Shown piece after piece: positions 16,201 through 17,561 of a stretch of 64,000 bases of DNA. Source of the stretch: Octopus sinensis (lineage: Eukaryota); the NCBI RefSeq assembly GCF_006345805.1, contig NC_043014.1, forward strand, positions 5,456,001 to 5,520,000. The letters are read 5' to 3'. Below the pieces are notes generated by a model, which had not been told where the DNA came from, made no database searches, and saw only the letters and a list, made by a program, of their open reading frames with translations. Made by a program: the position numbers and the translations under genes. Position 1 is the first letter of the stretch; each line of letters opens with the position of its first letter.

Positions 16201-17561
16201 TTGAAATACGATGGAACAGATTTTACCTGTCTATAACCGAACCCTTAACGGTTTCCTTAAAGGTTTCCCAATTCAGCTTAAAATGAACCTTACAATCCTT
16301 TCTCCACTCACTTTCCTTAAGACGTAAAATAACCCCAGTGATGCAGCAAATAAAGTCAACGTGACCATAACGTGTATCTTCACGTGACCTGTTCTCGACT
16401 AGCCGAGAGTTTCAGCTACGCTGTGCAGGATGTTCTGTTGAATAACTTTTAACTACCCATCGACTGTCAATACTCTGCACCTCACCGTGTTCTTCTATTT
16501 TATATTGGTTAAAAATTCCTTGCATCGTTCTTCTATTTCATCACCGTTAAAATTTGAACAAAATCGTCTTTTTCTATTTTAGAGGAAATGCGTGACGTAA
16601 CGGCCTTCCCTTCACACTCTTTTGACATCTGCACACAACCATCTAAAGCCATGTATCTAGACATATTCATAAATATTACCTACACAAACCCGTTGGCGTA
16701 CACCTACAACATATATACATATAAATCATAGACACGTACAGTTCTTAACTCATACACAAACATTCATTCAGCAACACAGCTTACACTCGCATCGATAGTA
16801 GTTTGCATACACAAACCTACACACGTAAACATAGTGAATGTTCAAACACATAGACACAAAGTCACACACACACTTACACACACGCATAAACTCGATCACA
16901 CACACGTAAAGACACACACACACACAGTCGTATGTGTGTGTATATATAATCGCAAATTTTAAATTAGAAAGTTCCTTTTCAAGGATTTCTTTTAATCCAC
17001 GTTTTTCTTATTTCATTTTATTTAATATTTTCTTTATTTGATATGTTCTTACCAATTCTAGGTGTGGTTGGTGGAACAGCGTGGAACGAAACAGGCGGCG
17101 GAAGTAATCTCTTATGTCTACCTAACGACCCCATTTTGGCCAATTACACTGGACCTGTTAAAAATGGGGGTCACATGTATGGCAGTGAATATCAAACATC
17201 AAATTCCTATGCGAAAAAGCACTTTTCTTTAGCTAACGCTGAATCACTTTTTAATCACAACGTTCTGTGTGCTGTCTGTTTGACACGACAACCTGCTGTT
17301 GTTATGATGTTACCAGCCAGGACAAAGTGTTACGCTGGTTGGACAGCTGAGTATTCAGGTTATTTGATGACCGAGGGTTATAGTCATAAAGGCAGACATG
17401 AATATGTGTGTGTGGACTATGCACCAGAAGCTGATCCAGCGGGTTACAGAAACGAAAATGGAGCTTTATTATATTTGGTGGAGGGAATTTGTGGTTCATT
17501 GCCATGTCCACCGTATGTCTATGGTCGCGCATTAACCTGCGTTGTGTGCAGTAAATATTGA
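4061..17561 (+). CDS. Copy 1: type II membrane-anchored short-chain-collagen-C4/spongin-NC1-like domain protein, ~256 aa; join(4061..4204, 9666..9717 or 14317..14368, 15686..15760, 17062..17561)
   Basis: All introns are GT-AG with matching phases (0,1,1). Protein: [153 protein letters not shown]. The YTRWGR..C, GGGSNxLCLP, CAVC, EYxGYLM and CGSLPCPPY motifs match the invertebrate short-chain collagen C4-like family. Confidence 0.85.
5496..5910 (+). mobile_element. tRNA-derived SINE (octopus-type), full length
   Basis: Head GGCGCAGGAGTGGCTGTGCGGTAAG (A box) and GGTTCAGTCCC (B box), body ACCTTGGGCAAGTGTC..GGCGGTGCTCCAGCATGGCCGCAGTC, tail of AAAAGAG-type repeats; sits in a (TA)n tract. Confidence 0.85.
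5961..6320 (-). mobile_element. Same tRNA-derived SINE family, inverted, tail-to-tail with 5496-5910
   Basis: Reverse complement of the head (CACAGCCACTCCT, GGGACTGAACCC) and tail (CTTTTACTCTTTTAC); short internal deletion. Confidence 0.85.
8752..9380. repeat. Old imperfect inverted repeat (~200-bp arms), MITE/foldback-like, in intron 1
   Basis: TTCCAGTTTGTAAATCTACAA..GGGTAGATATCCCAG..ATTTCGCTTTCT (left) is the reverse complement of AGAAAGCGAAAT..CTGGGATATCTACCC..TTGTAGATTTACAAACTGGAA (right). Paralogs at ~13590-14250, ~39690-40360 and ~60445-61095; the left arm is deleted in copy 2. Confidence 0.65.
9666..9717 (+). CDS. Copy 1 exon 2a (52 nt, [17 protein letters not shown])
   Basis: tttttccacag|AAC...CCA A|gtaaga. 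Phase 0 to 1, exactly what is needed to join exon 1 to exon 3. Conserved in all copies. Confidence 0.8.
11979..12500. repeat. (TTTC)n/(TTCC)n pyrimidine tract upstream of exon 3; equivalents at ~14945-15570, ~29850-30540, ~44875-45325, ~61825-62140
   Basis: Visible simple repeats; source of the FLPS/EGRK spurious ORFs. Confidence 0.95.
12606..12680 (+). pseudogene. Copy 1 exon 3a, pseudo-exon with two in-frame stops
   Basis: Paralog of exon 3 with intact cacag|GA and G|gttagt splice sites, but TAG at 12626-12628 and TAA at 12671-12673. Confidence 0.85.
14317..14368 (+). CDS. Copy 1 exon 2b (52 nt, [17 protein letters not shown])
   Basis: ttttcacag|AAC...CCA A|gtaaga; open frame, same phases as exon 2a. 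Confidence 0.65.
15686..15760 (+). CDS. Copy 1 exon 3b (75 nt)
   Basis: ttcgcag|GA CCC GGT..TAC GAT G|gttagt; encodes [24 protein letters not shown]. Confidence 0.85.
17062..17561 (+). CDS. Copy 1 exon 4 (500 nt, terminal, Cys-rich domain)
   Basis: ttctag|GT GTG GTT; open to TGA at 17559-17561 (ORF 17043-17561). Confidence 0.92.

What the first reader, a model, noticed from the sequence alone, without database searches (positions are those of the whole stretch)
17076..17483. Clustered hypervariable patches in exon 4 with an excess of replacement changes
Hand codon comparison: copy 1 vs copy 4 over the 113 available exon-4 codons gives 22 amino-acid-changing and only 4 purely silent codon differences; copy 1 vs copy 3 over 165 codons gives 26 vs 9. 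Changes cluster in four patches between invariant Cys/Gly scaffold. P1: TAW/TAW/SPF (17076-17084). P2: [33 protein letters not shown] (17145-17177). P3: [30 protein letters not shown] (17373-17402). P4: [33 protein letters not shown] (copies 1/3/2). Many are multi-base radical changes (GGG>TTT, TGG>TTT, CCT>GGA), while long stretches such as [18 protein letters not shown] are base-identical. Inference: diversifying selection on a ligand-binding face, CDR-like.
Basis: partly seen in the sequence, partly recalled or inferred. Interest (0 to 1): 0.85.

Follow-up and report, generated by a model that had tools for sequence, protein, structure and literature searches.

The report
Octopus shuffled-loop collagen-head receptor array
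The variable patches are real and belong to a tandem array of more than 100 octopus genes encoding predicted membrane-anchored collagen-IV-like heads, whose variable loops are swapped between copies and likely pushed apart by selection, so the array likely acts as a germline repertoire of recognition proteins whose targets are untested.

Summary
The context is larger. The window holds 4 units of an array with 117 exon-4 matches on one contig (3.67-6.53 Mb) and 35 on small contigs. Each window unit has its own anchor exon, and that exon is nearly invariant across the main clade. 123 intact non-redundant exons encode 123 different heads. The head is a spongin-type collagen IV NC1 fold without a collagen helix, predicted to trimerise through invariant residues. 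Variation is clustered (p 5e-5). P1-P3 hold in 113 held-out paralogs, P4 only weakly, and a further patch (codons 44-53) was missed. Patches reassort between genes. Silent diversity beside patches is not raised, so donor tracts do not explain them. My site-model dN/dS test is uninformative here, because conversion nulls give as many hits. A simulation-calibrated rare-variant test favours omega near 3 over neutral hypermutation (0/180 nulls at count<=2, 20/180 for singletons). By a moderate-confidence alignment the patches map to NC1's stalk-distal face. Ligand and tissue are untested. I found no paper describing the array.

The parts
4061..4204 (+). Copy 1 exon 1: short N-terminal tail plus hydrophobic segment (predicted type II anchor); nearly invariant across the main clade
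   Evidence: AF2 helix over residues 16-55
9666..9717 (+). Copy 1 exon 2a: stalk with dibasic KK-S motif (predicted convertase site, inferred)
12606..12680 (+). Copy 1 duplicated exon 3a with in-frame stops (dead internal duplicate)
14317..14368 (+). Copy 1 duplicated exon 2b (open, lacks the KK motif)
   Evidence: contig ends resembling exon 2b abut exon 3 in run X1
15686..15760 (+). Copy 1 exon 3b: start of the NC1-like head
17062..17561 (+). Copy 1 exon 4 coding part: rest of the NC1-like head, 165 codons, 9 conserved Cys
   Evidence: GT..AG joint from exon 3 in 2 of 4 runs
17076..17093 (+). Patch P1 (codons 5-10), loop; pseudo-symmetry mate of P3
17145..17177 (+). Patch P2 (codons 28-38), loop; aligns near the collagen IV A74-D78 loop
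17193..17222 (+).
17241..17255 (+). Minor patch P6 (codons 60-64)
17373..17402 (+). Patch P3 (codons 104-113), His-rich loop
17451..17489 (+). Patch P4 (codons 130-142); weak family-wide except codons 135 and 142
17520..17522 (+). Isolated hypervariable codon 153 (pseudo-symmetry mate of P6)
23906..31943 (+). Copy 2: exons 1-3 intact, exon 4 lacks its first ~125 codons (truncated copy)
35566..47282 (+). Copy 3, intact (exon 4 coding 46785-47279); retroelement-like insert in intron 2
56080..64000 (+). Copy 4, intact; exon 4 starts near 63660 and runs past the window end (complete in L006)

Best explanation
The patches are the variable loops of a tandem family of more than 100 octopus genes that encode a predicted membrane-anchored, predicted trimeric collagen-IV-NC1-like head; the loops are reassorted between copies and likely diversified by positive selection, and the family likely serves as a germline repertoire that binds varied outside ligands such as microbial or parasite surfaces. 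SHOWN: array size, gene anatomy, near-invariant anchor exon, loop-confined variation, mosaic reassortment, spliced contigs. PREDICTED: NC1 fold, trimer on an invariant interface, type II topology. INFERRED: omega about 3 at about 40 codons; loops on the stalk-distal face; shedding at the dibasic stalk motif; mixed trimers between paralogs; the ligand class.
For: 117 exon-4 matches on C18 and 35 on other contigs; 150 exon-1 matches interleaved with them. 123 non-redundant intact exons give 123 proteins and 122 patch combinations. Exon 1 pN 0.007, pS 0.028 in 52 main-clade copies, against patch pN 0.12-0.35. Reassortment: patch-to-patch distance correlation 0.04-0.51, compatibility test p 0.001; only 14 of 123 genes have one nearest relative at all five patches. 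Selection: rare-variant omega 1.99 reached by 0 of 180 neutral-hypermutable simulations; silent-rate ratio 1.30 vs null minimum 2.20; an omega=3 model gives 24.7 variable columns, omega 1.77 and ratio 1.56. No CpG excess at variable codons (0.161 vs 0.173). Fold: Foldseek E 4.7e-6 to collagen IV NC1; head-only VIA Z 7.4, rmsd 4.8, 153 aligned, next unrelated row Z 2.0. Trimer score 0.92 vs best control 0.00 (calibration counts in the Full report section; may reflect memory of NC1 trimers). 19 of 20 tightest exon-4 contact residues have entropy <=0.41. Patches are two-fold pseudo-symmetry mates (HHalign 94.9%) and align near NC1 residues E40, A74-D78 and E175-Y189, which PMC4878091 and PMC6527180 place at or next to the trimer-trimer face. 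His is 19% of variable residues vs 0.9% elsewhere.
Against: No ligand, tissue or infection response was tested. The FUBAR-like test found 12 sites, but neutral conversion nulls found 10-11 and 1, 6 and 12, so it carries no weight. With singletons only, omega is 1.19 and 20 of 180 nulls reach it; without removing chimeric codons it is 0.58-0.85. The same columns are variable in distant homologs (rho 0.57), so they are tolerant loops. The NC1 residue mapping is weak (HHalign probability 49%, E 1.8e-4; global mode failed), and no coordinates were available to check exposure. Simulation parameters were my own choices.
Confidence: 0.5

Rival explanations
1. Self-identity code: the variable face pairs head-to-head with a matching trimer on another cell, as collagen IV NC1 trimers pair into hexamers, giving a protocadherin- or Dscam-like adhesion or self-avoidance code.
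For: Patches map to the face that forms the NC1 trimer-trimer contact. Predicted membrane anchor. Octopus protocadherins show the same full-gene array plus conversion pattern (PMC9068888 section 9).
Against: Free reassortment of patches would tend to break matched homophilic pairs. The chloride-switch residues are not conserved in the alignment. A conserved dibasic stalk motif suggests shedding (inferred). A hexamer was not modelled.
Confidence: 0.22
2. Neutral tolerance: the patches are unconstrained surface loops that drift, perhaps with raised local mutation, while conversion homogenises the rest.
For: The same columns vary in distant homologs. Pairwise omega is below 1 for most patches. 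Site models cannot exclude it. The singleton test is not significant. Silent diversity inside variable codons is somewhat raised (0.153 vs 0.107).
Against: Uniform neutrality gives 1-6 hypervariable columns, not 23. A regional hot spot predicts adjacent silent diversity of 0.21-0.36; observed 0.114. Codon-specific hypermutation predicts a silent ratio of 3.3-4.7; observed 1.3-1.9. 29 columns variable in distant homologs are conserved here.
Confidence: 0.15
3. Materials role: secreted His-rich heads tune a cuticle, mucus, ink or matrix by metal binding or cross-linking, and many variants give graded properties, as with squid S-crystallin arrays.
For: The family is homologous to extracellular-matrix spongins (PMC5395295). 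His enrichment. One member was seen in an ink proteome, with 1 peptide-spectrum match in 1 of 3 samples (PMC10142993 supplement). Homologs are up in anemone pedal disc (PMC6626399).
Against: No collagen helix to polymerise. Rapid loop-specific turnover on an invariant scaffold is not expected of a bulk material (inference).
Confidence: 0.13

Closest known systems
Spongin short-chain collagen-related proteins ('short-chain collagen C4-like')
   Same: Same head: database names of the closest homologs, 10 Cys, no HSQ, shorter than collagen IV NC1, two internal half-domains.
   Different: No Gly-X-Y domain; predicted type II anchor; more than 100 tandem copies with hypervariable shuffled loops.
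Collagen IV NC1 (C4, PF01413) domain
   Same: Best fold match; predicted trimer.
   Different: No Pfam C4 hit for exon 4 or any of 96 aligned members; 16-22% identity; swap-hairpin region shortened; the face that is a conserved hexamer interface in collagen IV appears to be the variable one here.
Cephalopod clustered protocadherins (PMC9068888, section 9 read)
   Same: Multi-megabase full-gene tandem array with signs of gene conversion.
   Different: Unrelated fold; variation sits in short loops of one terminal exon; no evidence of neural expression here.
Germline-diversified innate receptor families: Ly49/NK C-type lectin-like receptors, sea-urchin Sp185/333, snail FREPs, bivalve C1qDC (all recalled, not tested)
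   Same: Works like: clustered paralogs, conserved scaffold, variable binding loops, mosaic shuffling; Ly49 is also type II anchored.
   Different: Different domain; no immune function shown for this family.

Membership tests
Spongin short-chain collagens | NC1 domain homologous to collagen IV NC1 | tested here: met
   Foldseek E 4.7e-6; VIA Z 7.4-8.1, rmsd 4.1-4.9, about 150 aligned
Spongin short-chain collagens | Seven Cys shared with collagen IV plus three spongin-specific (10 in all; PMC5395295) | tested here: met
   9 Cys in exon 4 (121-123 of 123 sequences) plus 1 in exon 3 (83 of 83); total counted, one-to-one positions not checked
Spongin short-chain collagens | No HSQ motif (PMC5395295) | tested here: met
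   RWG and LPA stand opposite HSQ in the profile alignment
Spongin short-chain collagens | Short collagenous Gly-X-Y domain before NC1 | tested here: not met
   Only PGPG precedes the head; P0002 has no Pfam hit while 16 of 96 aligned members have PF01391
Collagen IV | Pfam C4 match, long triple helix, chloride-switch residues R76/D78/E175/R179 | tested here: not met
   true collagen IV loci lie on other contigs
Collagen IV | NC1 trimerisation | tested here: inconclusive
   Predicted score 0.92 vs control 0.00; a prediction that may reflect likeness to solved NC1 trimers
Diversified innate recognition receptor family | Many clustered paralogs with variable loops on a conserved scaffold | tested here: met
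Diversified innate recognition receptor family | Positive selection on the variable sites | tested here: inconclusive
   Favoured by the rare-variant test at count<=2 (0/180 nulls) but not at singletons (20/180); site models uninformative
Diversified innate recognition receptor family | Binds non-self ligands; expressed in haemocytes or barrier tissue | not testable with these tools
   Runs carry no tissue record
Clustered protocadherin/Dscam-type identity code | Shared constant exons or mutually exclusive splicing | tested here: not met
   Each window unit has its own exons 1-3; exon-1 matches alternate with exon-4 matches along C18
Clustered protocadherin/Dscam-type identity code | Paralog-specific homophilic binding | not testable with these tools
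   Needs a cell-aggregation assay

The most novel reading that the evidence does not exclude
Octopuses have turned the spongin/collagen IV NC1 head into a germline combinatorial recognition system: more than 100 chains with an invariant trimer interface and six hypervariable loops, reshuffled by gene conversion and arranged in pseudo-six-fold on the outward face, so mixed trimers could display hundreds of thousands of distinct surfaces for non-self or cell-identity recognition.
Probability: 0.3. Interest if true: 0.9.

Novelty: new variant of a known kind. Interest (0 to 1): 0.7.

Why it matters
How cephalopods achieve recognition diversity without adaptive immunity is little understood (my own knowledge), and the spongin-type NC1 head has no solved structure or known ligand in the searches run here. 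This array gives a concrete candidate repertoire with defined variable loops. It would join protocadherins, C2H2 genes and S-crystallins as a multi-megabase cephalopod expansion; it is not mentioned in the main text of PMC9068888 (0 hits for 'collagen' or 'spongin'). It would also show a matrix assembly domain reused as a variable binding scaffold. Methodologically, standard site models fail on this family, so future tests need conversion-aware nulls.

Tried and rejected
Pfam and PDB sequence searches gave nothing for the head. FUBAR-like site test with 7 segment trees: 12 sites at pp>=0.9 (11 with multi-hit changes); rejected as evidence because nulls gave 10, 11, 10 and 1, 6, 12. M8-like statistic about 130 beats uniform nulls (0, 0, 1.6) but not 4x-mutable nulls (88-142). 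Pairwise NG86 in patches is distorted by multi-base codon differences. Four-gamete test on whole-patch haplotypes was almost empty (6 quartets) and is not used. Flank-dependent conversion simulations gave 0-3 hypervariable columns. The frequency-dependent selection simulation finished only its weakest setting and is not used. Global HHalign and half-domain alignments to collagen IV failed; only the relaxed local alignment spans the domain. Variable residues are not enriched in the predicted interface (16 of 23 vs 98 of 165, my hand count). Shared-constant-exon model rejected. Atlas ApeC hit at 0.79 is a lead only; no paper links ApeC and NC1. No RNA holder is on record; the runs laid are guessed RNA with no tissue. 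No earlier findings. Literature searches found no description of this array; subscription papers and the supplements of the cephalopod genome papers were not seen and may list it.

Full report
OBSERVATION. Because 78% of sites in this exon are replacement sites, these ratios do not exceed neutrality (p 0.76 and 0.28). The clustering is the real signal.

GENE AND ARRAY. The window holds four tandem units of a four-exon gene. Exon 1 encodes a short tail and a hydrophobic helix (predicted type II anchor). Exon 2 encodes a stalk with a KK-S motif; distant homologs have KRS or RxRR there, which I read as a convertase site from general knowledge. Exons 3-4 encode a 10-Cys head. Copy 2 lacks the 5' part of exon 4. 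Copy 1 has an internal exon 2-3 duplication with one dead exon 3 and rare changes at 7 conserved columns, so it may be decaying. The closest database proteins are octopus and argonaut 'short-chain collagen C4-like' proteins. Two searches of the own genome gave 152 distinct exon-4 matches, 117 on C18 between 3.67 and 6.53 Mb; these are lower bounds because only about 150 candidates are scored per search. An exon-1 search gave 150 matches interleaved with them.

DATA SET. I fetched loci for 150 of the 152 matches. They gave 144 full-length exon-4 hits and 24 partial pieces. Eleven had stops, a damaged acceptor or a damaged end; 133 were intact; 124 remained after removing identical sequences; one compensated frameshift was dropped, leaving 123. 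These encode 123 different proteins, mean identity 82%, with only 9 pairs above 98%, so assembly redundancy does not explain the number.

PATTERN. 23 columns have entropy >=1.5 bits and are clustered (p 5e-5). P1-P3 hold in 113 paralogs outside the window's subclade; P4 is weak; a further patch at codons 44-53 holds the most variable column and indels. Exon 1 is almost invariant (pN 0.007, pS 0.028 in 52 main-clade copies). His makes up 19% of variable residues against 0.9% elsewhere.

SHUFFLING. Linkage falls from r2 0.11 to 0.03 within about 30 bases and nearby sites are more compatible than permuted ones (p 0.001). Genes identical at one patch still differ strongly at the others, and patch distance matrices correlate at only 0.04-0.51. 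Only 14 of 123 genes share one nearest relative at all five patches. Seven segment trees fit far better than one tree (lnL -9331 vs -14085, with many more parameters). Gene conversion is the inferred mechanism.

SELECTION. (a) Uniform mutation with neutral loops and conversion gives 1-6 hypervariable columns, not 23 (12 simulations). (b) Donor tracts or a regional hot spot would raise silent diversity beside the patches (0.21-0.36 simulated); it is 0.114 against 0.122 far away. (c) My FUBAR-like test found 12 sites at pp>=0.9, but neutral nulls gave 10, 11, 10 and 1, 6, 12, so it is not evidence. (d) Rare-variant test: variable columns defined from common codons only, chimeric codons removed. 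At count<=2 there are 55 replacement and 9 silent variants, omega 1.99 (binomial p 0.03), reached by 0 of 180 neutral simulations with 3-4x mutable codons; the silent-rate ratio 1.30 is below all 180 (minimum 2.20). For singletons omega is 1.19 (20 of 180 reach it) and the ratio 1.92 (2 of 180). A model with omega 3 matches the data (24.7 columns, omega 1.77, ratio 1.56). Without the chimera filter omega is 0.58-0.85. The same columns are also variable in distant homologs (rho 0.57). Overall positive selection is favoured, not proven.

STRUCTURE. AlphaFold2 on P0002, whose exon-4 part equals copy 3, gave pLDDT 87.6; P1-P3 and the first half of P4 lie in loops. Foldseek's top hits are all collagen IV NC1 (E 4.7e-6). 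A head-only model of a paralog (pLDDT 89.9) matched NC1 at Z 7.4, rmsd 4.8, 153 aligned among 48,161 chains, the next unrelated row at Z 2.0. The head is an internal two-fold repeat (HHalign 94.9%, E 1e-8) that pairs P1 with P3, P2 with P4, P5 with codon 142 and P6 with codon 153. A three-copy model scored 0.92 against a best control of 0.00; runs agreed in at least 94% of contacts, pLDDT at least 87. That mark was reached by 21 of 30 solved homo-pairs and 0 of 23 single chains in the microbial calibration, and by 17 of 29 eukaryotic pairs but only 1 of 7 without an older solved relative, so the pass may reflect memory of NC1 trimers; the output does not show whether the ring closes. Nineteen of the 20 tightest exon-4 contact residues are near-invariant, which would allow mixed trimers. 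A relaxed profile alignment to collagen IV (probability 49%, E 1.8e-4; numbering) places P1 near E40, P2 near A74-D78, P3 on the repeat-2 mate of the E40 loop and P4 near E175-Y189. PMC4878091 and PMC6527180 (passages) put A74-D78, E175, R179, N187 and Y189 at the trimer-trimer face and E40 in a salt bridge with R76. That this face lies opposite the stalk, and that Met93 (near P5) cross-links across it, is recalled. Convergence of the patches on one outward face is therefore inferred, not measured.

EXPRESSION. No holder is on record as RNA. Contigs of four guessed-RNA runs from four studies, laid at 80% likeness, cover exon 4 in all four and exon 3 in three, skip unique intron sequence, join across intron 3 at GT..AG in 2 of 4, end in poly(A) at 17876 in 1 of 4, and carry many paralog-type variants. 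Tissue is unknown. One family member was seen with a single peptide-spectrum match in octopus ink (PMC10142993, passage and supplement row).

COMPARISON. The head meets the spongin NC1 criteria given in PMC5395295 (passages) but the collagenous domain is absent, so this is a spongin-type head, not a short-chain collagen. It works like germline-diversified receptor clusters (recalled). It shares array logic with cephalopod protocadherins (PMC9068888 section 9), whose main text does not mention collagen or spongin. Homologs appear in gene lists for anemone pedal disc, mussel tissues and fan mussel (passages of PMC6626399, PMC4581086, PMC13093298) without functional tests. Seven literature searches found no description of this array; unseen supplements may list it.

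VERDICT. A real and large feature. Reassortment and loop-confined diversity are shown; positive selection is favoured; an outward recognition face is predicted. Non-self recognition 0.50, identity code 0.22, neutral loops 0.15, material 0.13. New variant of a known kind; interest 0.7.

Noticed in passing
window 41150-43600: GC-rich (about 52%) degraded insert in intron 2 of copy 3 that looks like a non-LTR retroelement by eye; absent from the other copies.
   Followed up: no
window 9239-15760: Copy 1 has an internal duplication of exons 2-3; exon 3a has stops and exon 2b has lost the KK motif. Contig ends in run X1 suggest exon 2b is spliced to exon 3.
   Followed up: partly
window 31690-31822: Copy 2 has lost the end of intron 3 and the first ~125 codons of exon 4; an AG sits just before the remaining piece and by eye would keep the frame, so a truncated head might be made.
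   Followed up: partly
window 286-7514 and 52335-59595: The 5' halves of copies 1 and 4 are 94.5% identical over 7.4 kb (up to 99% outside microsatellites) while their exon 4s are 84% identical in protein: a very recent 5' conversion or duplication that stops before the head.
   Followed up: no
G000:C18 3.67-6.05 Mb: The array is arranged in long same-strand blocks that flip orientation several times; three pairs of identical exon 4s lie in different blocks (L073/L090, L076/L086, L077/L088).
   Followed up: partly
window exon 1 copies vs loci L031-L150: Two exon-1 types exist: the window's subclade of about 10 genes (starting MEIA) and the main clade (starting MDFA), suggesting two conversion pools.
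   Followed up: partly
L050:4707: One paralog has a compensated frameshift that rewrites about 17 residues after P3 but keeps the exon open.
   Followed up: no
proteins P0121-P0157: Some distant homologs carry several tandem copies of this head in proteins of up to 3949 residues; 4730 representative proteins match at E<=0.001, so this is a large family with no Pfam model.
   Followed up: no
P0002 residues 62-256: Weak leads link the head to ApeC domains (Atlas score 0.79) and apicomplexan APC-beta domains (Foldseek E 0.03); a remote kinship is possible but untested.
   Followed up: partly
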